This document shows, one piece after another, positions 47,156-60,260 of a stretch of DNA of 64,000 bases; the stretch's first letter is position 1; each line of letters opens with the position of its first letter. The translations under genes were made by a program, and so were the position numbers. Origin of the DNA: an uncultured Chloroflexia bacterium (lineage in GTDB: Bacteria > Chloroflexota > Anaerolineae > JAAYZQ01). A model generated the notes under the pieces. That model saw nothing but the letters and a program-made list of their open reading frames with translations, made no database searches and was not told where the DNA came from. Where the stretch lies: positions 320,001-384,000 of the forward strand of contig CAVOXA010000014.1 in the NCBI GenBank assembly GCA_963700285.1, written 5' to 3'.

Positions 47156-48808
47156 TCATTCCGTCGGATCCAGCACGCGCCCGGCAAAGAGGATGGAGCC
47201 CGACTGAATGTCGCGAATGAAGAAAATAAAGGGCCGGTCTACCCGGACCTCCACCGGTTCTGAGGGCATGGCCGACAGGGCCATACCCACCGCCGTTGCC
47301 GCGGCCGCCTCGGTGCCCTGCTCGTCCACCGCCACGAAGGCCTTGTGGATCACGGCGCTGATGAAGAGATCGCGCTGGCCCGTCATCCCTGAAAAGTCGG
47401 CCGCGTCGGAAAAGGCCAGCGGCATGCCCATGTCCGCCAGCGTGTCCCCCAGACTGAATTCGTCGTCGAACTCGAAGCGGGGCATGGTCAGGTCAATCTG
47501 CTGGTAGCCCGAGCCGTCCAGCGCGGATTCGACGACTGAGGTGTCCAGCGCCGCCTCAAAAGTCTCGAATCCCCCCTCGTCGGGTAGCAGCATGACCATC
47601 GACAGCTCGCTCCCGCTGTAGGGTAGCTCCACAAGCTGGTAGCCATCACCCCGGGCATAACCAAAGGTATCGCTCTGGCGCATCAGCGGCACCGTCACCG
47701 GCTCACCGTCGACGGGGTAAAACGGGCCATCCGCTGTGGCCGTCTCCTGGAATGGCTTGGCCCAGGCCGCATTAAAATAGATGGCATTGGTCAGCACCAG
47801 CCGGGTGGTGGCATCCAACACACCAGGTGGGATCAGGTTCTCGATCCGGCCCTCTGTCTGCTCGCTGACCCAGTCGTTGATGGTCGACCGGGCCGCCCCA
47901 GCGCCGGCAAAGTCTACGAGCCGCATGCCGGCGCCATAGTTGCGGGCCAGCAGGTCCAGGAACTCGGGCAGGAAGGGGTAGCCCGTCTGGCCCCAGAGGG
48001 CGTTGGCGATGTTGAGGCGGAAGCCTTCCCCATCCAAACCAGCCGCCCCTTCGCCTCGCTTGGCCAGCTCTTGATCCAGGCCGTTGAAGGCCGGGTGCAG
48101 CCACTCCTGGGGCAGGCTGAAGCGCAGCGTATCGGCCATCTGGGACTCGGTCTCCCCGCGAGCACCAGCGTAGGTCATGGCCAGCGCCACAGAGATGCTG
48201 TAGGGCGAGAAGAAGAGATTGCCCTCTTCTCCACGCAGTTTCTGGTATAGGTCAAAGGCGAAGGCACTGTTGCCTGTCGCCAGCATTTGCAGGTCGCTCT
48301 CCGGCACCTGGGGCGCAGCCTCACGCTCGCCCTGGGGCGGGACAGACTCGGTCACGTTTCCCATTGCATCCACTTTTCCCTCCCACTGGAATCCCGTTGC
48401 CGGGTCGCTGACCAGGACGGTATAGACAACATATTGTGGAGCCACGACGGGCATCGATACCTGGACCGTGCCATCCCAGGTAGCGGACGTGTACTCGACT
48501 GCATGGGAACCGACCAGCTTCTCGGGGGTGACCACCTGCTCGTCCCAGTTGGGATCCCGTAGCACATCCAGTCCGTACTGCTTGTACAGGTAGGCAAGGG
48601 CGGCGTCCCGACCGCGGGCGGGATCGGGCGCATCCACCAACCCGGGAGTTGGACCGGCCGGTTCGGAGCTTGGGCCGGAACGCACCGGCGTGGCCAGTGG
48701 CAGGGTAGGCTTGGGAGTCACTACAGCCTCTCGCGCCGGGATGCATGCACTGGCAACCAGCGGGCCCACCACCAAGATCAACATCAGCCTAAGCAGTTTC
48801 CTGTTCAT
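47156..48808 (-). CDS. Serpin-family lipoprotein
   Basis: Lipobox VASAC, FFSPYSI, LTNAIYFNAAW, hinge EQGTEAAAAT, VDRPFIFFIRD. Confidence 0.93.
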   Translation of the reverse strand: MNRKLLRLMLILVVGPLVASACIPAREAVVTPKPTLPLATPVRSGPSSEPAGPTPGLVDAPDPARGRDAALAYLYKQYGLDVLRDPNWDEQVVTPEKLVGSHAVEYTSATWDGTVQVSMPVVAPQYVVYTVLVSDPATGFQWEGKVDAMGNVTESVPPQGEREAAPQVPESDLQMLATGNSAFAFDLYQKLRGEEGNLFFSPYSISVALAMTYAGARGETESQMADTLRFSLPQEWLHPAFNGLDQELAKRGEGAAGLDGEGFRLNIANALWGQTGYPFLPEFLDLLARNYGAGMRLVDFAGAGAARSTINDWVSEQTEGRIENLIPPGVLDATTRLVLTNAIYFNAAWAKPFQETATADGPFYPVDGEPVTVPLMRQSDTFGYARGDGYQLVELPYSGSELSMVMLLPDEGGFETFEAALDTSVVESALDGSGYQQIDLTMPRFEFDDEFSLGDTLADMGMPLAFSDAADFSGMTGQRDLFISAVIHKAFVAVDEQGTEAAAATAVGMALSAMPSEPVEVRVDRPFIFFIRDIQSGSILFAGRVLDPTE

Positions 48809-51941: not shown

Positions 51942-53186
51942 ATGCGCAAGCGAGTCGTGATTACCGGCCTGGGGGCCGTCACCCCGCTGGGCAATGATGT
52001 AGCGACCTACTGGGCTGGACTGATCGAGGGACAGTCTGGGGTTGGTCCGGTCACTGCTTATGATGCCTCTGACCAAAAGAGCCAGATCGCCGCGGAGGTG
52101 AAGGACTTGGACCCTGACGGGCGCCTCGGCCGCAAGCAGGCGCGTCGCACTGACCGCTTCACCCACATGGCCCTGATCGCCTCGGATGAGGCCATGGCCG
52201 ATGCAGGCTTGGACCTCGACGGCGTCGGCAACGGCCATCACGTTGGCGTGATGCTCGGCTCCGCCATTGGCGGCCTGGGAACGCTGCTGGGCAGCCACGA
52301 GGTACTGCTCAGCCGGGGCCCAGGGCGGGTCAGCCCCCTGATGGTGCCAATGATGATGTCCAACGCGGCAGCCGGCGAGATTGCCATCCGCTATGGCCTC
52401 CACGGCCAGTCGCTCTCTGTTGCCTCGGCCTGCGCTACGGGAGCCAACGCCCTGGGCGAGGGAGCAGAGCTGATCCGCCGCGGCGTCGCGCAGGTGATGA
52501 TCTGCGGCGGTAGCGAAGCGACGATGCACCCCCTGGCTCAGGCGGCTTTCGCCAATATGCAGGCTCTTTCAACGCGCAACGACGAGCCTCAGCGTGCCAG
52601 CCGCCCCTTTGACGCGGGTCGGGATGGTTTTGTCATGGGGGAGGGTGCCGGTGTTCTGATCCTGGAGAGCCTGGAACACGCGCAGCAACGCGGTGCGCGC
52701 ATCTACGCCGAGCTGACCGGCTATGGCACCAGTTCGGATGCCTTTCACATCACGGCTCCCGACGAAGATGGACAGGGAGCCACCCTCTCGATGCGGCGTG
52801 CCCTCGACGGCGCCGGTCTCGCCCCAGAGGAAGTGGACTATATCAATGCCCACGGCACCAGCACGCCCCTCAATGATGCCATAGAGACGAAGGCCATCCG
52901 CACGGTTTTTGGCCAGCATGCCTACCGGGTACCGGTGAGTTCGACGAAATCGATGATCGGACACCTGCTAGGCGCGGCCGGAGCGGTGGAAGCCATCGCC
53001 TGCGTCAGGACGCTGGAGACGGGTGTGATCCACCCCACGGTGAACTATGAGACGCCCGACCCGGACTGCGACTTGGACTATGTGCCGAATCTGGCACGGG
53101 AAACGCACCCTCGCATGGCAATGTCCAACTCCTTCGGATTCGGCGGCCACAACGCCACGATCATCTTCTCGGCCTGGGAAGTGTAG
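51942..53186 (+). CDS. fabF: Beta-ketoacyl-ACP synthase II
   Basis: RVVITGLG, ASACATG (catalytic Cys), SRPFDAGRDGF, AHGTST, KSMIGHLLG, NSFGFGGHN. Confidence 0.95.
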   Translation: MRKRVVITGLGAVTPLGNDVATYWAGLIEGQSGVGPVTAYDASDQKSQIAAEVKDLDPDGRLGRKQARRTDRFTHMALIASDEAMADAGLDLDGVGNGHHVGVMLGSAIGGLGTLLGSHEVLLSRGPGRVSPLMVPMMMSNAAAGEIAIRYGLHGQSLSVASACATGANALGEGAELIRRGVAQVMICGGSEATMHPLAQAAFANMQALSTRNDEPQRASRPFDAGRDGFVMGEGAGVLILESLEHAQQRGARIYAELTGYGTSSDAFHITAPDEDGQGATLSMRRALDGAGLAPEEVDYINAHGTSTPLNDAIETKAIRTVFGQHAYRVPVSSTKSMIGHLLGAAGAVEAIACVRTLETGVIHPTVNYETPDPDCDLDYVPNLARETHPRMAMSNSFGFGGHNATIIFSAWEV

Positions 53187-53295
53187 GACCTTTCCAGGGA
53201 CGCCACGCCGGAAACGGCTTGAGTTGGACGGAGCGGCTAGCCGGATTGCGCGCCCCCGTCGAACCGCTGGCAGTTTCACCTCCCACTGCTCACCG

Positions 53296-54402
53296 TCAGG
53301 GCAGATGCTCCAGAACAAAGTGCCTCTGGTGCAGGGCGGCGCGGTGGAAATGCACCCACAGCGAATCCCAGAACCCGGGTTTTGCCGCGCGCGCGGGCAT
53401 CTGCGCCCAGTCCTGCAGGCTATAGCCATCCCACTCGACCGGCCCCTCGAGGGCGGATTGCCGCCAGGCCAGCTCGTCGTAGGCATATGCCTCCGGGTGC
53501 GGTTCAAACAGGTAGCCGAAGGCCTGCTGCCAGCGCTGGCAGCGCTGGTTTACGTCTCTTGCCTGGAAGGCCCGATATGCGGGCAGCGTGAGATGGTCGC
53601 CCCAGCGGGGCTGCCGGCCCTCCTCGGCCAGAAGCCCTTCGATCTGGGAAGAAATCTCGCTCCAGGGGATCGGGTCCTCGCCGCCAGCCTTGTCCATGGC
53701 CAGCAGGCGGTCGTAGATAGTCTCGCCCGCCTCCAGAAACAGCTCGACGTTGTCACGCTCGATGGGGCGCGGCGGCTGACCGAGATCGCACTTCCAACGT
53801 TGAAAAGCCAGGTCCGGAAAGTAGCCCGCCTCGCCGTGGCCGATGAAGGGCAGCGCGTCAAAGAGTACGTTTTCCACTTTCAGGTGATCCCACGCTCCCG
53901 CCTCCCGGTCATACAAGTGGATTGCCTCCACGTTGTTCTCTTCCCGGCACTCCCATCCGGAAAAGTCTTGGTGAGACCAGGTGTCGGCATAGGTGTGCAG
54001 CGCCACACCGATCCGGCACAGGCGCCGCTCGCGGTGTTCCAGGGGCTCGGTGGCGGCCTCCGCCAGCAGCAGACGGGAAAAATCGGAATCCGATCCCGTG
54101 ACAAAGGTAAAGCCCTCCCCATAGTCCGGGTCAAAGGGCGACAGGGGCAAAAAGTGGAAGGGGATCCAGACCCGTTTCTGCGCGTCCCAGGTCAGGGAAT
54201 GGACCGTCTCCAGGCCGAAATAGGAGGTACGTACCGGATCAAAGTGGGGACCTGCCACATCGTCCCTGAGCTTGAACACCCCCGTCTCTGTCGCATCGTC
54301 CACGTACTGCGACGCGTAGGCCAGGACCAGGGCATCGGCAGCGGCAAAGCCCGCGGCCCGGGCCAGTATGCCGATGCAGTAATAGTGAAAATCTCTTTGC
54401 AT
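53296..54402 (-). CDS. DUF6765-like protein, probable Zn-dependent phospholipase C/P1-nuclease-like fold
   Basis: DFHYY, ASQYVDD, WIPFHFLP, GVALHTYADTWSHQDF, IGHGEA. GAGGAGG RBS. Confidence 0.7.
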   Translation of the reverse strand: MQRDFHYYCIGILARAAGFAAADALVLAYASQYVDDATETGVFKLRDDVAGPHFDPVRTSYFGLETVHSLTWDAQKRVWIPFHFLPLSPFDPDYGEGFTFVTGSDSDFSRLLLAEAATEPLEHRERRLCRIGVALHTYADTWSHQDFSGWECREENNVEAIHLYDREAGAWDHLKVENVLFDALPFIGHGEAGYFPDLAFQRWKCDLGQPPRPIERDNVELFLEAGETIYDRLLAMDKAGGEDPIPWSEISSQIEGLLAEEGRQPRWGDHLTLPAYRAFQARDVNQRCQRWQQAFGYLFEPHPEAYAYDELAWRQSALEGPVEWDGYSLQDWAQMPARAAKPGFWDSLWVHFHRAALHQRHFVLEHLP

Positions 54403-54658
54403 GGCCCCCTCCTCATTCAGTCTCGGTGCTGCGCTGCCGAGGGTCAGATCCATCTGCTCTCACCAACCATTTTATCGGTACACCGCAATGGATCCTTACA
54501 GGCTCGGGCGAATCCGTGATTCCCCGGCCTGCGACCAGAAGATGGTGGTCACGGACCAGCGCGGAGCTAGGTCTTGCGGTCTACTGATCATACTTCCGTG
54601 GAAAACGCAACGCAGATAAGTGCAATGCAGCCAGACGGAAAGGCTCTTGAGCCTGGCG

Positions 54659-57600
54659 TCAGTCCTTCCCTGCTACGGACACCGGGCACGCTTCTACGTG
54701 CAGGAACTTGCGGCACTCCTCGTCCGTCAGCGAGCGGGTGACTCGCGATTCGGCCAGGGCCACCAGGTCTTTGAGGTTCAAGGCATACACGCTCACCTTC
54801 TGCCCCCCGCCAGTCGAACCCGTGGCCAGCCGCGCCCCATCGGGGCTGAAGGCTACCCAGGCCAGGGAGTCCTGACCGGAAAGCGTCAGCCGCTCCTGGC
54901 CAGTGTCCATGTCCCAGACCTTGGCCGTCCCGTCGAAACTGGCCGTCGCCAGACGGGTACCATCTGGGCTGAAGGTCAGACCAGGGGAAAATGCCGCATG
55001 GCCCGACAGAGTAAACAGCACCTGGCTTTCTGCGTCTGAGGGGTGATCTGTATCGGCGATATCCCAGACCAGCGCCGTACCATCGGCGCCGATCGCTGCC
55101 AGGCGCCTGCCGTCCGGGCTGAAGGCAATGTTCGCCAGACTGCGCCCAGCATCCAGCGCCTCCAATTCCTGGCCCGTAGCCGCGTCCCAGATCCTTGCCG
55201 TCCAGTCGTCCGAGGCCGTTGCGATATGGGTCCCATCGGGGCTATATGCCGCGCCCTGAACCCAGCTCCCGTGGCCATGCAGGGTGAACAACTCCTGGCC
55301 TGTGCGCGTATCCCACACCTTGGCCGTTCCATCCGCGCTGGAGGTGACCAGGCGGGCCCCGTCCGGGCTGAAAGATGCTTGAAATACAAAACCCGTGTGA
55401 CTGGGTAGAGTGAACAATTCATGACCGGTCGAAGCGTCCCACAGTTTCGCGGTCGTGTCCCAACTAGCCGTGGCCATCTGCTTGCCGTCGGGGCTAAACT
55501 CGGTCCATCCCGCAGCGATTTCGGGGTGGCCGTCCAGGGTCAGTAAAACCTGGCCGGTCGTGCTGTCCCGGATGGCGACTGTGCCGTCGGACTGGGACGT
55601 GGCCAGGCGCAAGCCGTCGGGGCTGTATGCGGGTGCGGTACCATCGACCAGCGTAAGCAGCTCTCTTCCCGGAGCCAGGTCCCAGATCCGGACTGTCACG
55701 TCCTCACCCGCGGTGACCAGGCGCTTGCCGTCCGGCGTAAAGGCCACATCATCCACCAGTCCGGAATGGCCCGCCAGGGTAAGCAGTCTGCGCCCGGTAG
55801 CGGCATCCCAGACCCTGGCCGAGCCATCCTGGCTGGCGGCCACGATCCGCGCGCCCTCCGGGCCAAAGGCCGCAGCCCGCGCCGGCTGTCCGTGGTCGAT
55901 GCTAACCAACGGCTCCGTCGCCCTAGATCCTGGCTCAACGTCCCACACTTTCACCCAGCCATCATAGCCAGCCGTCAACAGGCGCTGTCCGTCAGGGCTC
56001 AGGGCGATATAGATCTCGCCCGTATGGTCGGAAATAACCCGCAGCAGTTCACCCGTCCCAGCATCCCACAACCTGGCCGTGCCATCGGTGCCGGCCGTCA
56101 CCAGTCGTTCACCATCTGGCGTAAAGAGGACACCGATGACGCCGCCAGGATGTACGCTGCCGGCCCGTATCTCGTCGGCATGGCCCGTCAGAACGAGCAG
56201 TTGTTGGCCGGTGGCGCTATCCCACACCCTGGCCGCCGGATCAGCCCCGGCGGTGGCCAGACGCTTCCCGTCCGGGCTGAAGGCGAGGCCGCTCAGAGGA
56301 GCGCCATGATCGATGACGAGCAACTGCTGGCCGGTGGCGGCATCCCAGACTTTCGCGGTCTGATCGTCACTGGCTGTCGCGATACGGGCACCATCGGGGC
56401 TGAAGGCCAGGCCAAAGATAGAGATACCTCTGTGCTCCGTGGCAAAACTCAACAGTTCCAGGCCTGTCGCCGCGTCCCATACCTTCACGGTCCCATCGTC
56501 GCTGGCCGAGGCCAGACGGGTCCCATCGGAGCTAACGGCGACGCTTTCGGGCATTTTCACGTGGCCGGTTAGCGTCATCAACAGGTGCAGTTCCGGGATC
56601 GACTCGTGCAGGGCATTCTCCGCCTCCAGCGTGTAGGCTTCCGACAGTCCCTGCAGGGCCAGCAACACGCTGCGCTCCGGGTCGGCGTCCAGATTGTTGA
56701 TGGCCGCCGCCGCCAATTCGCGTGAGGTGGCGACACGGGCTTGCTCCTGTGCCTGCTGCTGCTGCCAAATCGCAACCACTGCCGCCGCTGCTGCCAGCAA
56801 AACCACCACCGCCAACACTCCCGCCAACCGGCGGAATCGCCCGGTGGCCATGGTCTGCTCTTCGGCCCGCCTCCTCTCCGTTTCAGCTACCTTTTGCGCT
56901 GCTTCAAGCTCTCGCTGCCGCTGGGCTTCCCGCTCCTCTTGTTCGCGCCGGGCTATCTCCTGTGAAACCTGCAGAAACTCGCTCTCCAGAGGGTTCAGGT
57001 CCCCGGCGTGCCCCTCAGCCCACTCGCCGGCCGCCACCAGCCGAGTACCCCGGTACAGCTCGCCCGGCTCGCGGTCCAGCGCTTCCCAGTCCAGCGCCGC
57101 GCTGGTCAGATGGCGGTGGATGCGCAGGCCCTCCCGGTCCTCATCCAGCCAGCCGCGCAACGCCGGCCACTCCCGGATCAGCGCTTCGTGGGCTACCTCG
57201 ACGGTGTCTTCGCCTACCGTGATGAGCCGGGCATCGGCCAGGGTCATGAGCACCGACTCTACGACCGGCTCCTCCTCGGCCGTCCGCACCAGCTCTTCTG
57301 GCGCTACGCGGCGCCGCGTGTCCTGAGTCCCCTCCTCTCCCAGCTCTGTCAGCCGCAGAAAGATATTGTGAGCGATAGCTTGTTCGTCAGGAGAAAAGTA
57401 CCCAAAGACCCTGTCAGCCGTCTGGGCAATGGCTCCCGCCACCCCACCCGAGGCCGCGTACCCCGACAGGGTAAGCATCCGCCCCCGCCGCTGCCCCCAC
57501 GTCTCCAGCAGGGCGTGGGACAACAGTGGCAGAGCCCCCGGCTCGCCGGCCACATCGTCCACGATGGTGTCGGCCAGGCCCGGCTCCAGGCACAAGCCCA

Positions 57601-59443
57601 CGCGCTCCGCCGGCCACTCGACGGCCTGGCGCAGCCCCACCTCATCCAGCGGCCCAACCAGCACGCTATCCGCCAACCGCGCCGCCAGCTCGGGATAGTC
57701 GGCGCAACGCCCGTAAAAGTCGGCCCGGATGGTCGGCACCACCACGGTCCGGCCCTGCTCCGCCTCTACAGCGTGCAGCAGCGCCTTGATGAATGCGCGG
57801 CGTTCCGTCGCACTCCGGCACAGGGCAAAGATCTCCTCGAATTGGTCGACCACCAGGAGCAAGCGTACGCCCCGCGGCTCATCCGCCAGCGCCTGCTTCA
57901 CCGCCAGGTGCATGGCCTGGGGCCGTGCCTGCAACGCCTCATGCAGGGCGCTGGCTTCGACACCCCGCAGCAGCGAGACCCGGACCGCCAATTCCTCCAG
58001 CGGATGGGCGCCAGGGGTCAGGACCAGCGTCCGCCACGCCTCGCTGCCCGGCAGCGCATTCCCCCAGATAGCTGGCAGCAACCCGGCTCGCACTACCGAC
58101 GACTTGCCGCTGCCCGACGGCCCCACCACCGCCAGGAAGCGGGTCCCCGCCAGCCGGGCCGTCAGCTCGGCCACCAGCACCTCCCGACCGTAAAAGTACT
58201 CCGCATCTTCGGCTTCGAAAGCCGCCAGTCCCTTGTATGGGCAGGGCACCTCGGCCGGAGGCAGCAACAACTCCTCTTCAACGACCATTCCGGTCAGCGG
58301 CACAGAGACCGATACCTGTTGGCGCTGGAGGATGAGGTTGGTCTTGACCAACTGCTGCCGCTGCAGATCGAGCTGTTCCCTCTGCATGGCCAACTGCAGC
58401 CCCTGCCGGGCCCGTACCTCCGCCAGCGCCTCCTGCAGATCGCCCAGCATCCAGCGGAACTCACCCAACTGGCTGCCCAGGTCGCCCAATCCCCGAGCCA
58501 GAACTGCCTTCACGTCCTCGGAAGCGGCCATCATGGCCGCTTCCACACCGTGCACCGCTTGGAGCAAGCGGCTGGCACCCGCTTGCAAGGCCAAGGCCAC
58601 AGGCCCATCGCCTTCCCACTCCTGTTGCAGTTCGGCCTCCAGTAGCTGCCGGAGCTTCTCAGGTTCGGCCTCCTGCCGACGCAGCACAAAACCAGCCAGA
58701 AATTCGGCGAGGGCCGCCGCCCCTAGATCGTGAAGCACCCCCACATTCCCTGCCAGCGCCGGAGATTCTGGCGACAAGTCACCAAGGACCGCGGGGAGCA
58801 GAGTGGTGCTCACCAACCCCACCACCAACCTCTCCGGTTCCAGGGCCGCTAGCCGATGACCCTGCCGGCCTACCATCTCGCTGATGGCGCGCCCTGACAG
58901 CGAACGAGGCGGAGGAAACTCGACCTGCGGCAACTCGGGATGGAGCAACTGGTAGATCTGCTGCGGGGCGCTCACATCCTTTAGCAGATGCTCACCTAGA
59001 TCCAACAAGCTTGCCTTCTGGGGGAGGGGTGCAATCTTGGTGACAGCAGGGGTTAGGAGGATCTGTCCGCCCCAGGCCGCGGCCATGATCCGCGCCGTAC
59101 AGTTCACTGGTGGACCATAGTAATCCCCGCCAGTACTGCCCGGTGCAGGGTGCAACTCTGCCTCGCCGGCGTGGAGCCCCACCCGGATACGCAGCCCGCC
59201 GATGGCGCCCCATGCTTCCTCAGCGAACCGCTTCTGCGTTTTCAGGGCACAGGCCACCGGCTCGCCCGCTTCAAAGGCCGCCGTCACGCCGTCGCCGGTG
59301 TGCTTGGTGATCCGGCCGCCGCTGGCCCGGATCTGCTCCTGGAGGATGGCATCGTGCCGGGCAAGGACTGCTCCCATCTCCGCAGTGTGGCTCTCCCAAA
59401 GCCGGGTCGAGCCTTCGATATCGGTGAAAAAGAAGATGGGCAT
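54659..59443 (-). CDS. Class III nucleotidyl cyclase - helical linker - nSTAND1 NTPase - TM - WD40 repeat protein
   Basis: FTDIEGST, KHTGDG, GDYYGPPVNCTAR; CPYKGL, GPSGSGKSS, VDQFEE, HEALIREW; one TM helix; more than a dozen FSPDG...(K/R)(V/L/I)WD repeats. Confidence 0.92.
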   Translation of the reverse strand: MPIFFFTDIEGSTRLWESHTAEMGAVLARHDAILQEQIRASGGRITKHTGDGVTAAFEAGEPVACALKTQKRFAEEAWGAIGGLRIRVGLHAGEAELHPAPGSTGGDYYGPPVNCTARIMAAAWGGQILLTPAVTKIAPLPQKASLLDLGEHLLKDVSAPQQIYQLLHPELPQVEFPPPRSLSGRAISEMVGRQGHRLAALEPERLVVGLVSTTLLPAVLGDLSPESPALAGNVGVLHDLGAAALAEFLAGFVLRRQEAEPEKLRQLLEAELQQEWEGDGPVALALQAGASRLLQAVHGVEAAMMAASEDVKAVLARGLGDLGSQLGEFRWMLGDLQEALAEVRARQGLQLAMQREQLDLQRQQLVKTNLILQRQQVSVSVPLTGMVVEEELLLPPAEVPCPYKGLAAFEAEDAEYFYGREVLVAELTARLAGTRFLAVVGPSGSGKSSVVRAGLLPAIWGNALPGSEAWRTLVLTPGAHPLEELAVRVSLLRGVEASALHEALQARPQAMHLAVKQALADEPRGVRLLLVVDQFEEIFALCRSATERRAFIKALLHAVEAEQGRTVVVPTIRADFYGRCADYPELAARLADSVLVGPLDEVGLRQAVEWPAERVGLCLEPGLADTIVDDVAGEPGALPLLSHALLETWGQRRGRMLTLSGYAASGGVAGAIAQTADRVFGYFSPDEQAIAHNIFLRLTELGEEGTQDTRRRVAPEELVRTAEEEPVVESVLMTLADARLITVGEDTVEVAHEALIREWPALRGWLDEDREGLRIHRHLTSAALDWEALDREPGELYRGTRLVAAGEWAEGHAGDLNPLESEFLQVSQEIARREQEEREAQRQRELEAAQKVAETERRRAEEQTMATGRFRRLAGVLAVVVLLAAAAAVVAIWQQQQAQEQARVATSRELAAAAINNLDADPERSVLLALQGLSEAYTLEAENALHESIPELHLLMTLTGHVKMPESVAVSSDGTRLASASDDGTVKVWDAATGLELLSFATEHRGISIFGLAFSPDGARIATASDDQTAKVWDAATGQQLLVIDHGAPLSGLAFSPDGKRLATAGADPAARVWDSATGQQLLVLTGHADEIRAGSVHPGGVIGVLFTPDGERLVTAGTDGTARLWDAGTGELLRVISDHTGEIYIALSPDGQRLLTAGYDGWVKVWDVEPGSRATEPLVSIDHGQPARAAAFGPEGARIVAASQDGSARVWDAATGRRLLTLAGHSGLVDDVAFTPDGKRLVTAGEDVTVRIWDLAPGRELLTLVDGTAPAYSPDGLRLATSQSDGTVAIRDSTTGQVLLTLDGHPEIAAGWTEFSPDGKQMATASWDTTAKLWDASTGHELFTLPSHTGFVFQASFSPDGARLVTSSADGTAKVWDTRTGQELFTLHGHGSWVQGAAYSPDGTHIATASDDWTARIWDAATGQELEALDAGRSLANIAFSPDGRRLAAIGADGTALVWDIADTDHPSDAESQVLFTLSGHAAFSPGLTFSPDGTRLATASFDGTAKVWDMDTGQERLTLSGQDSLAWVAFSPDGARLATGSTGGGQKVSVYALNLKDLVALAESRVTRSLTDEECRKFLHVEACPVSVAGKD

Positions 59444-59541
59444 GTCCCACACCCCTTTCCTGTCTGCGGCGCCGAGAACCATGCGGGACTGCGAGAGTGC
59501 TATCGAGCCGTGGCCCGCCGATCACTGTTCACGTGGGACCA

Positions 59542-59570
59542 ATTGTAGCACATATTCCGCCTTACGTCAA
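59542..59570 (-). promoter_or_regulatory. Sigma70-type promoter of the cyclase-STAND gene
   Basis: Minus strand TTGACG-N17-TACAAT with an extended TG. Confidence 0.6.
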
Positions 59571-59819
59571 CGCATCCATACAGATGACGAGCAACGGATG
59601 AGAGTGGACCAGGACATCCAAGATTTCCCTACGCCGTGAGTTCCTTCATATCGCGATACGCTACCCGCAAAGGGGATGCCGATTCGTGCGCGCAGGTGCT
59701 GGGCTGTGGTCCAGCACGAGCGTTTTCGCACAGTCTCGAGCAAATGGTAAAGTTTATGGAAACAGGAAGGCATTCCGCCAATTTAGGTGCAATTGCCCTC
59801 GCGCAGCCACCGGCCGATC

Positions 59820-59847
59820 TTGACACGGAACCGACTCGTGGTACAAT
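59820..59847 (+). promoter_or_regulatory. Sigma70-type promoter of the kor operon
   Basis: TTGACA-N16-TACAAT with an extended TG. Confidence 0.6.
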
Positions 59848-59903
59848 TAGCCGCAAATCCTGGGTAGCAATGGGTACCCGCCGGCAACCGGGAGGTTGTA
59901 GAT

Positions 59904-60260
59904 ATGACTAGTGAAGAAACGGCGGAGGGATCCGTCGTTCAGGTTTCTGGGACAGGCCAAGCTGGTGCAACCAGCCAGCGTCCCTCACGCCCCCGAGGCC
60001 ACGTCACCATCTTTGAAACCTGGTGCAAGGGCTGCGGCATCTGCATCGAGTTTTGCCCCAAAGGCGTATTTGAGGCCAATGGCCAGGGCCGACCCGTGGT
60101 GGTGCACGGAGAAGCGTGTACGGCCTGCCACTGGTGCGACACCCATTGCCCGGACATGGCCATCAGGGTGCGGCGGCTCACGCCAGAAGAAGTGGAAGAG
60201 CTGGAGGAGCTGGCCGAGCTGGCCGGGCTGGGCGCGCTGCCGGCCGGAGGTGAGCTGTGA
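59904..60260 (+). CDS. korD: 2-oxoacid:ferredoxin oxidoreductase delta subunit (2x[4Fe-4S])
   Basis: CKGCGICIEFCP and CTACHWCDTHCPDMAI. GGGAGG RBS. Confidence 0.85.
   Translation: MTSEETAEGSVVQVSGTGQAGATSQRPSRPRGHVTIFETWCKGCGICIEFCPKGVFEANGQGRPVVVHGEACTACHWCDTHCPDMAIRVRRLTPEEVEELEELAELAGLGALPAGGEL

What the first reader, a model, noticed from the sequence alone, without database searches (positions are those of the whole stretch)
53296..59443. Candidate NLR-like signalling/defence pair: cyclase-STAND-TM-WD40 sensor followed by a DUF6765 (PLC/P1-nuclease-like) gene
Seen: a 1594-aa protein with a class III cyclase keeping both metal Asp residues (TDIEGS, TGDG), the Lys/Asp pair typical of ATP specificity and the NxxAR motif. 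A ~200-aa helical/coiled-coil linker, an intact nSTAND1 NTPase, one TM helix and a double WD40 propeller follow. It has its own promoter. About 256 bp downstream on the same strand, with no evident terminator, lies a protein with HYY, VDD, PFHF and H.YADTWSH metal-ligand-like motifs. Known: STAND oligomerisation activates N-terminal effectors (Avs, bacterial NLRs), class III cyclases need dimerisation, and Pycsar couples class III cyclases to effectors. Inference: ligand-triggered cAMP production, possibly coupled to a Zn-dependent lipase, nuclease or nucleotide hydrolase. Linkage of the two genes is unproven, and cyclase-STAND fusions are widespread in this kind of genome.
Basis: partly seen in the sequence, partly recalled or inferred. 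Interest (0 to 1): 0.7.

Follow-up and report, generated by a model that had tools for sequence, protein, structure and literature searches.

The report
Membrane STAND cyclase, incidental hydrolase neighbour
Both genes are real: one encodes a membrane-spanning switch protein predicted to make cAMP inside the cell when its propeller, likely outside, binds a cue, and the next encodes a likely zinc phosphoesterase; they were found side by side only in one small lineage, so they are probably neighbours, not a defence system.

Summary
Observation confirmed; the two-gene defence reading is not supported. Gene 1 (1594 aa) has a class III cyclase, a Pfam-less helical domain, nSTAND1, one TM helix and 14 WD40 repeats. 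The positive-inside bias (44 of 45 homologues) puts the propellers outside the cell, so it looks like a receptor cyclase, not a cytoplasmic phage-protein sensor. Gene 2 (DUF6765) is a leaderless enzyme whose model best matches the phospholipase C/P1-nuclease fold, with nine near-invariant putative metal ligands and no cNMP-binding domain. Linkage: of 94 DUF6765 loci (76 with at least 1 kb upstream), only the sister-species locus has the sensor upstream; a third lineage is inferred, unverified. 0 of 24 other DUF6765 genomes carry this sensor family, and 0 of 5 other sensor loci with downstream DNA have DUF6765. Sensor relatives sit beside CRP/cNMP-binding genes in 2 loci. DUF6765's recurrent partner is an Amidohydro_2 enzyme (10 of 94 loci). 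Cyclase-nSTAND1-propeller proteins are already listed in a published supplement, and this scan found them before on other DNA. New here: the helical insert and the DUF6765 fold and partner.

The parts
54659..59443 (-). Gene 1, 1594 aa: class III cyclase - helical insert - nSTAND1 - stalk - TM - double WD40 propeller
59542..59570 (-). sigma-70-type promoter candidate TTGACG-17-TACAAT with extended -10 TG
   Evidence: both hexamers kept in the sister species where upstream DNA diverges
58898..59443 (-). class III nucleotide cyclase (aa 1-182): D8, D51 metal ligands; K47, D107 adenine-type; N114, R118
   Evidence: Pfam PF00211; model matches adenylyl cyclases at Z 21-24 and Pycsar cyclases at Z 15-17; residue roles recalled from class III cyclase literature
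58244..58897 (-). helical insert (aa 183-400; helices 185-379) with no Pfam family; travels with the cyclase onto nSTAND1-WD40 and AAA_16-TPR bodies
57065..58240 (-). nSTAND1 NTPase (aa 402-793), Walker A/B intact
56768..56824 (-). single TM helix (aa 874-892), Arg-rich on its N-terminal side: predicted N-in, C-out
   Evidence: 45 of 45 homologues have one such helix; 44 of 45 are positive-inside
54794..56581 (-). 14 WD40 repeats (two propellers), predicted extracytoplasmic
54686..54715 (-). C-terminal Cys pair C1577/C1586, the only Cys after the TM helix (possible disulfide)
   Evidence: at least 2 Cys in the last 60 aa in 40 of 45 homologues; disulfide is inference
54641..54654 (-). short hairpin 5 nt after the gene 1 stop with a 3-U tail; stem kept, loop changed in the sister; weak terminator candidate
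   Evidence: sequence and alignment; not called by the scan; function untested
54487..54588 (.). dispersed two-hairpin repeat in the gap between the genes; 3 other strong and 3 weak copies in the genome
   Evidence: no Rfam match
54409..54414 (-). ribosome-binding site before the ATG at 54402
   Evidence: sequence; 111 of 131 family representatives start M-x-x-D/E-x-H
53296..54402 (-). Gene 2, DUF6765, 368 aa, leaderless; PLC/S1-P1-nuclease-like fold; putative trinuclear metal ligands Met1 amine, H6, D35, H83, H136, D140, H144, H189, D197
   Evidence: ligand roles inferred

Best explanation
Gene 1 encodes a single-pass membrane protein that likely works alone as a receptor adenylyl cyclase, and gene 2 is likely an independent cytoplasmic zinc phosphoesterase that lies next to it through lineage-level gene order. 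Shown: domain order, intact catalytic motifs, one hydrophobic helix with an Arg-rich N-terminal flank, and adjacency in two congeneric genomes. Inferred steps: (1) the double propeller faces outside and binds an unknown ligand or surface; (2) the signal passes through the TM helix and coiled-coil stalk to nSTAND1, which exchanges nucleotide and oligomerises; (3) this brings cyclase domains together through the helical insert into the head-to-tail dimer that class III cyclases need; (4) cAMP acts in trans on the cell's cNMP-binding proteins (18 reading frames in this genome), such as CRP-type regulators. DUF6765 most likely hydrolyses a phosphodiester or phosphomonoester at a three-metal site. 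My split for the substrate: phospholipid or glycerophosphoester 0.4, nucleotide or nucleic acid 0.35, other 0.25.
For: Topology: 45 of 45 homologues have exactly one TM-grade helix, 89-131 aa after the STAND end; 44 of 45 are positive-inside; 40 of 45 have a C-terminal Cys pair. Cyclase: best fold matches are adenylyl cyclases, Z 23.7-21.0 at rmsd 2.1-2.5; motifs conserved. Independence: 1 of 94 DUF6765 loci has the sensor upstream, 76 of them having at least 1 kb upstream; 0 of 4 viral loci; 0 of 24 DUF6765 genomes hold the insert; 4 of 7 insert-bearing genomes in a 401-genome class sample lack DUF6765 (76-89% complete); 0 of 5 other sensor loci with downstream DNA have DUF6765. cAMP output: the G374 homologue is followed within about 20 bp by a cNMP_binding + Crp-HTH gene, and a G013 homologue is preceded by two cNMP-binding genes; 25 cNMP_binding matches in this genome. 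Context: fabF, glyoxalase, serpin and a 2-oxoacid:ferredoxin oxidoreductase operon; 12 of 13 neighbours have no PADLOC hit and the 13th is a generic kinase about 9 kb away. Against the sister, all parts are under purifying selection, dN/dS 0.11-0.28, similar to fabF at 0.10. DUF6765's recurrent partner is an Amidohydro_2 subfamily (10 of 94 loci), and lipid hydrolases are adjacent in 5 of 79.
Against: The pair is kept in the sister species (DUF6765 there is split by a frameshift), with the 256-bp gap 82% identical. A third lineage is likely: a 79%-identical N-truncated sensor (P0174) and a 69%-identical DUF6765 (P0007) both list a 14,925-bp longest contig; this is inferred from length only and stayed unchecked. 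All 3 DUF6765-positive genomes of the class sample also hold the sensor family (one family, not independent), and in G013 the gene upstream of DUF6765 is cut off by the contig end. Other STAND proteins lie within 8 kb in 6 of 79 DUF6765 loci (5 independent), against about 2 expected from this genome's density (my arithmetic; the baseline is a lower bound). They are of mixed clades and orientations, none directly upstream. A dCache-cyclase directly follows DUF6765 in L017. nSTAND1 was defined in predicted conflict systems (PMC8195603, passages). Topology, activity and transcription are all unmeasured.
Confidence: 0.7

Rival explanations
1. Lineage-specific, non-defence operon: the sensor promoter also drives DUF6765, which acts downstream of the signal (for example remodels membrane lipid or removes a nucleotide).
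For: Same strand, 256-bp gap, no strong terminator or second promoter found; order kept in the sister and probably a third lineage; 3 of 3 DUF6765 genomes in the class sample also have the sensor family.
Against: The whole ~8-kb block, fabF included, is collinear in the sister, so adjacency is expected by descent. The gap carries a dispersed repeat and a hairpin after the stop. Each gene occurs widely without the other.
Confidence: 0.15
2. Two-gene immune system: the STAND sensor detects an invader, makes cAMP, and DUF6765 kills the cell or filament as a Het-C/PLC-like effector.
For: nSTAND1+TM+propeller proteins carry caspase and TIR heads in predicted conflict systems (PMC8195603 supplement 1). 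DUF6765 shares the HxxxDxxxH motif given for Tox-HET-C (PMC3482391, passages). CapV-like patatins or HmaA are adjacent to DUF6765 in 3 of 78 loci (L037, L038, L065). The second propeller is the fastest-evolving part (dN/dS 0.28).
Against: No conserved linkage. DUF6765 has no cNMP-binding domain, so no evident way to sense cAMP. No full-length PADLOC match for either gene; gene 1 has only partial-domain hits. Housekeeping surroundings at genome-average GC. dN/dS is far below 1 throughout.
Confidence: 0.08
3. The hydrophobic helix anchors or folds back without crossing the membrane, so the propellers are cytoplasmic and gene 1 is a membrane-tethered, stand-alone NLR-like sensor.
For: No signal peptide; 600 residues must be exported after an internal anchor; the same cyclase-insert head also sits on AAA_16-TPR bodies.
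Against: A full 19-residue hydrophobic span with positive-inside bias in 44 of 45 homologues, and conserved terminal Cys pairs in several spacings.
Confidence: 0.07

Closest known systems
nSTAND1 + TM + beta-propeller proteins, including ACYC+nSTAND1+BetaPropeller entries (Kaur et al. 2021, PMC8195603; passages and supplement 1 seen)
   Same: Same NTPase clade and same core order. 'nSTAND1+TM+Beta' occurs 318 times in supplement 1, and three listed proteins join a cyclase to nSTAND1 and a propeller (PWU20186.1, RIL11133.1, RPJ24401.1).
   Different: A ~200-aa helical insert between cyclase and STAND. No EAD, EACC1, TIR or caspase partner gene was seen. In the passages read, that family is described from computation.
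Avs/AVAST bacterial NLR-like defence proteins (PMC12931631, passages)
   Same: Effector-STAND-repeat-sensor layout.
   Different: The Avs proteins described there sense phage proteins inside the cell and use nuclease or Sir2 effectors. Here a TM helix separates the sensor from the NTPase and the head is a cyclase. No Avs model hit.
Pycsar (PMC11224242, passages)
   Same: Class III cyclase followed by a second gene.
   Different: The cyclase has adenine-type K/D and fits adenylyl cyclases better than PycC. It is fused to STAND and WD40. The neighbour lacks the cNMP-binding domain that defines PycTIR.
Receptor-type class III adenylyl cyclases, for example trypanosome receptor cyclases (PMC6027212, passages)
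   Same: Works like these: one TM helix, outside sensor, activation proposed by dimerising the catalytic domains. Best fold match 1fx4, Z 23.7.
   Different: Reverse orientation (cyclase N-terminal), a STAND switch in between, WD40 instead of Venus-flytrap sensor.
Zn-dependent phospholipase C / S1-P1 nuclease / Het-C superfamily (PMC5201275 and PMC3482391, passages)
   Same: Top six fold matches of the DUF6765 model are all of this fold (Z 6.3-4.3; next unrelated row 3.5). N-terminal residue plus His/Asp set conserved. Weak Zn_dep_PLPC hits in 2 of 16 family members scanned.
   Different: No signal peptide (family starts at M-x-x-D-F-H); 10-16% identity, rmsd about 4-5 A; extra C-terminal ~130 aa; substrate unknown.

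Membership tests
nSTAND1 clade STAND NTPase | PF20703 match above cut-off with intact Walker A/B | tested here: met
   449.6 bits against 27.1, profile 1-378 of 379; motifs invariant in 45 of 45
nSTAND1 clade STAND NTPase | ligand-induced nucleotide exchange and oligomerisation | not testable with these tools
   needs biochemistry
Class III adenylyl cyclase | class III cyclase fold | tested here: met
   Z 23.7, rmsd 2.1 over 181 residues to 1fx4; Foldseek E 3.8e-11
Class III adenylyl cyclase | two metal Asp, Lys/Asp adenine pair, Asn/Arg pair (roles recalled) | tested here: met
   D8, D51, K47, D107, N114, R118
Class III adenylyl cyclase | makes cAMP from ATP | not testable with these tools
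   needs an assay
Pycsar | adjacent receptor with a cNMP-binding domain plus TIR or TM effector | tested here: not met
   DUF6765 is the only Pfam match of gene 2; definition from PMC11224242
Pycsar | PycC-type pyrimidine cyclase | tested here: not met
   PADLOC PycC hits are partial and weak (E 1.2e-6, about 95 aa); adenine-type K/D; PycC structures rank below adenylyl cyclases
Avs / bacterial NLR defence | tripartite effector-STAND-repeat layout | tested here: met
Avs / bacterial NLR defence | sensor on the same side as the NTPase, able to meet intracellular phage proteins | tested here: not met
   by prediction only: single TM helix with positive-inside bias in 44 of 45
Avs / bacterial NLR defence | defence-island context or match to Avs models | tested here: not met
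Avs / bacterial NLR defence | phage protection | not testable with these tools
   needs phage challenge
PLC / S1-P1 nuclease superfamily (gene 2) | all-alpha PLC/P1 fold | tested here: inconclusive
   favourable but middling: top six VIA rows of this fold, Z 4.3-6.3, rmsd 3.9-4.9 over 149-161 residues; Foldseek no match at E <= 0.001
PLC / S1-P1 nuclease superfamily (gene 2) | N-terminal residue plus His/Asp set for a three-zinc cluster | tested here: met
   at sequence level: H83, H136, D140, H144, H189, D197 in 131 of 131; H6 and D35 in 129 of 131; M1 in 125 of 131; 3D geometry not inspected
PLC / S1-P1 nuclease superfamily (gene 2) | phospholipase or nuclease activity | not testable with these tools
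   needs an assay
Conserved two-gene system (sensor + DUF6765) | linkage kept beyond close kin or in new contexts | tested here: not met

The most novel reading that the evidence does not exclude
In this small clade a trans-membrane NLR-like receptor senses an outside threat (predator, phage particle or neighbouring filament) with its propellers, makes cAMP through an undescribed helical coupling domain, and switches on a co-transcribed Het-C/PLC-like enzyme that destroys the cell's own membrane or nucleotides: a bacterial parallel to fungal incompatibility death, with DUF6765 as a new effector family.
Probability: 0.08. Interest if true: 0.75.

Novelty: new variant of a known kind. Interest (0 to 1): 0.3.

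Why it matters
As a pair it is probably ordinary. Two by-products have some value. First, the sensor belongs to a listed but, in what I read, experimentally unstudied class of STAND proteins that appear to signal across a membrane; a cyclase head gives an easy readout (cAMP) for testing whether a STAND switch can be driven from outside the cell, and this subfamily adds a ~200-aa helical module that moves with the cyclase between two STAND clades. Second, DUF6765 (2,318 clusters at 50% identity; 0 papers in the library searched) gets a testable assignment as a leaderless PLC/P1-nuclease-type metalloenzyme with named ligands and a recurrent amidohydrolase partner.

Tried and rejected
Sequence searches of DUF6765 against solved structures gave nothing useful (0 hits; 2 chance rows with the profile); Foldseek gave no match at E <= 0.001. 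The helical insert had no Pfam match at E <= 5 and no Atlas hit; fold searches with the 1-400 model were filled by the cyclase, so the insert's fold is untested, not shown new. The complex job on two copies of the insert gave no answer (score 0.02). Public runs held only small shares of the stretch; contigs laid from one RNA and three DNA runs were short, and no listed piece spanned the gap, so they say nothing on co-transcription. Rfam: 0 matches in 53000-60000. The gap folds at z -2.07, explained by the repeat. S1-P1 nuclease family: 0 of 151 phylum genomes, so no profile-profile comparison with DUF6765 could be built. Longer DUF6765 proteins: 0 of 16 scanned had a second domain above cut-off. 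The upstream in-frame ATG at 54453 was rejected as the start (family starts, RBS). PMC2447327 held only its reference list for my terms. Paper searches: DUF6765 0; nSTAND1 + cyclase 2; five-term STAND/cyclase/WD40/Chloroflexi/NLR 0; others. None described this pair; subscription papers are not covered. Whether P0007 and P0174 share a contig stayed unchecked. Neighbour ORFs were picked by a simple script with some hand choices, so a few may be shadow frames; only 80 of 178 confirmed genome matches were kept by the tool, and only immediate neighbours and P-loop or large ORFs, not all 626 flanking ORFs, went to Pfam.


Full report
Observation. The window lies on contig C14 of a 7.05-Mb assembly; homologues with source names are Anaerolineae/Chloroflexota. 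Gene 1 runs 59443-54659 on the minus strand (1594 aa) and gene 2 runs 54402-53296 (368 aa), 256 bp apart. Pfam gives nSTAND1 at 402-793 (E 1.7e-134) and WD40 for gene 1, and DUF6765 alone for gene 2; the sliced N-terminus matches Guanylate_cyc (E 3.4e-10) and residues 183-400 match nothing. GC of about 63-68% across the two genes is within the window's range. The flanks are fabF, a glyoxalase, a serpin and a 2-oxoacid:ferredoxin oxidoreductase operon; 12 of 13 flanking proteins have no PADLOC hit and one is a generic kinase.

The sensor. A search with the insert found 57 proteins; 44 full-length WD40-type ones were aligned with gene 1. D8, D51, R118, Walker A, Walker B, R573 and H752 are invariant in 45 of 45, K47 and N114 in 44 of 45. 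The 1-400 model (pLDDT 89) matches adenylyl cyclases best (1fx4 Z 23.7, CyaB 21.7, Rv1900c 21.6) and Pycsar cyclases less well (Z 15.0-16.9). That K47/D107 select adenine is recalled, not tested. Every one of the 45 has a single TM-grade helix and no second one, 44 have more Lys/Arg before it than after (medians 5 and 2), and 40 have at least two Cys in the last 60 residues. I read this as N-in/C-out, with 14 WD40 repeats outside. The lead for testing topology came from earlier scan notes; the test is mine. Median identity to gene 1 is 71% cyclase, 55% insert, 75% STAND and 36% WD40, so paralogues differ mostly in the sensor. Between sister species every part is under purifying selection (dN/dS 0.11, 0.16, 0.16, 0.14, 0.18, 0.28; DUF6765 0.12; fabF 0.10). 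The cyclase-insert head also sits on AAA_16-TPR bodies (P0166, P0171, P0173, L141), so it is a mobile module. The promoter candidate keeps both hexamers in the sister, where similarity is lost upstream of the -35.

DUF6765. The model is confident (pLDDT 93). Foldseek finds nothing significant, but the wide structural search ranks six PLC/S1-P1 structures first (Z 6.3-4.3) above unrelated rows (3.5 or less): moderate support. S1 nuclease binds three zincs through its N-terminal main chain and His/Asp side chains (PMC5201275, passages). In 131 representatives H83, H136, D140, H144, N156, H189 and D197 are invariant, H6 and D35 are in 129, and 111 begin M-x-x-D/E-x-H. This fits Met1 as the N-terminal ligand and a cytoplasmic enzyme (inference). 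HxxxDxxxH is also the Het-C motif (PMC3482391, passages). There is no cNMP-binding domain.

Linkage. The same-genus genome G001 has sensor, DUF6765 (frameshifted) and convergent fabF in the same order, within a 7.7-kb block at 83% identity. Among 79 genome loci (best 80 of 178 kept) and 15 metagenome loci, 65 and 11 have at least 1 kb upstream; HMMs for cyclase, insert, nSTAND1 and WD40 find the sensor upstream only in L012, which is the G001 locus. None of 4 viral loci has it. None of 24 DUF6765-bearing genomes chosen from those loci (13 Anaerolineae-type close hits and 11 others) holds the insert (completeness not given). In one 401-genome class sample, 7 have the insert and 3 have DUF6765; all 3 are among the 7 and in one family, and 4 sensor genomes (76-89% complete) show no DUF6765. 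Five other sensor loci with downstream DNA show a Pfam-less protein (L115), another cyclase gene (L116), a CRP-type regulator about 20 bp on (L138), DinB (L141) or a convergent hydrolase (L118); four more end at contig edges, one of them (L117) preceded by two cNMP-binding genes. Against my reading: P0174 (79% identical sensor, N-truncated) and P0007 (69% DUF6765) list the same 14,925-bp contig length, so a third lineage probably keeps the pair (unchecked). Other STAND proteins lie within 8 kb in 6 of 79 loci (L017, L026, L027, L032, L034, L041), about 2 expected from 15 STAND genes in this genome (a lower bound), but they differ in clade, side and strand.

What DUF6765 does travel with. One Amidohydro_2 subfamily is adjacent and co-directional in 8 of 79 genome loci and 2 of 15 metagenome loci; 7 built the HMM, 3 were independent hits, and L055 has the two in one frame. 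Record titles span Verrucomicrobiota, Aminicenantes, Acidobacteriota and Anaerolineae. This genome has no close copy (best E 1.2e-6). Patatin, PLD-like or PLA1 genes are adjacent in 5 of 79 (L037, L038, L074, L076, L077) and PfkB kinases in 3. Of 139 immediate neighbours scanned with PADLOC, near-full-length defence-specific matches occur at 3 loci (L037, L038, L065); the other hits I judged generic (sigma factor, kinase, TatD, PolA, ABC, amylase, cyclase, partial PLD or nucleotidyltransferase).

The gap. No U-tailed terminator or promoter was called. A 5-bp-stem hairpin follows the stop and is kept in the sister, and 54487-54588 is a two-hairpin repeat with three other strong copies in the genome. 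Co-transcription cannot be decided; the runs laid were uninformative.

Mechanism. Most likely (0.70) gene 1 is a stand-alone receptor cyclase: outside ligand, stalk and TM helix, STAND oligomer, cyclase dimer, then cAMP to cNMP-binding proteins (25 matches in 18 frames). Class III cyclases are active as head-to-tail dimers (PMC6027212, passages). All steps after the domain order are inferred. Rivals: lineage operon 0.15, defence pair 0.08, cytoplasmic propellers 0.07.

Known kinds. nSTAND1 was named in PMC8195603 (passages). Its supplement 1 has 'nSTAND1+TM+Beta' 318 times and three ACYC+nSTAND1+BetaPropeller proteins; DUF6765 had 0 occurrences in the supplement files searched, file 13 not searched and file 4 cut. 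A preprint passage treats nSTAND1 among immunity STANDs (10.64898/2026.10.19.760177), another predicts a periplasmic sensor domain for one STAND target (10.1101/2023.09.22.558884), and PMC7159879 passages describe cyclase heads in EACC1 systems; bioRxiv supplements were not seen. It fails Pycsar and Avs membership on the features testable here. This scan noted cyclase-nSTAND1-TM-WD40 proteins in other genomes and DUF6765 twice; these notes are leads, not support.

Verdict. Real genes, known architecture with a new helical insert, a useful fold call for DUF6765, and no support for the pair as a system. Interest 0.3.

Noticed in passing
window 59678-59799 (core 59695-59721); G000 C22:44923-47506, C4:96633-97008, C10:1365136-1365412, C5:261521-262475: A palindromic REP-like repeat between the two divergent promoters; 42 copies of the 27-bp core within 3 mismatches in the genome, many in tandem arrays with near-identical units (periods about 50, 69, 78 bp), so not CRISPR.
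   Followed up: partly
L023, L025, L030, L034, L042, L047, L048, L055, L092, L095: DUF6765 is paired with one Amidohydro_2 subfamily in several phyla, in either order, and in one reading frame in L055: a candidate two-enzyme module worth its own study.
   Followed up: partly
L008:4401-5594: In the sister species a transposase-like ORF (my reading of the translation; not scanned) lies just upstream of the sensor's -35 box, where similarity to the window ends.
   Followed up: no
G000 C10:1198781-1203556 and 1204629-1206758: A second nSTAND1-WD40 gene whose head reads like a caspase-type domain, followed by another caspase-like ORF (motifs recalled, not scanned): a better conflict-system candidate than this locus.
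   Followed up: no
G000 C1:1119246-1123641 and C22:170143-175238; L008:10607-11763: nSTAND1 paralogues and the sister's DUF6765 are split by frameshifts, as are many other sister ORFs; this looks like long-read assembly error rather than decay (inference).
   Followed up: no
L116 (G013:C438): Two cyclase-insert genes in tandem; the second starts about 200 bp after the first ends.
   Followed up: no
L134-L137: DUF6765 relatives (25-32% identity) occur in 4 viral contigs; in L134 the gene lies opposite phage structural-like genes.
   Followed up: no
window 47156-48808 (-): Serpin with a lipoprotein-like N-terminus and an extra ~170-aa N-terminal region; also in the sister.
   Followed up: no
window 59820-59847 (+): Near-consensus promoter (TTGACA-16-TACAAT, 11 of 12) for the divergent ferredoxin / 2-oxoacid oxidoreductase operon.
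   Followed up: no
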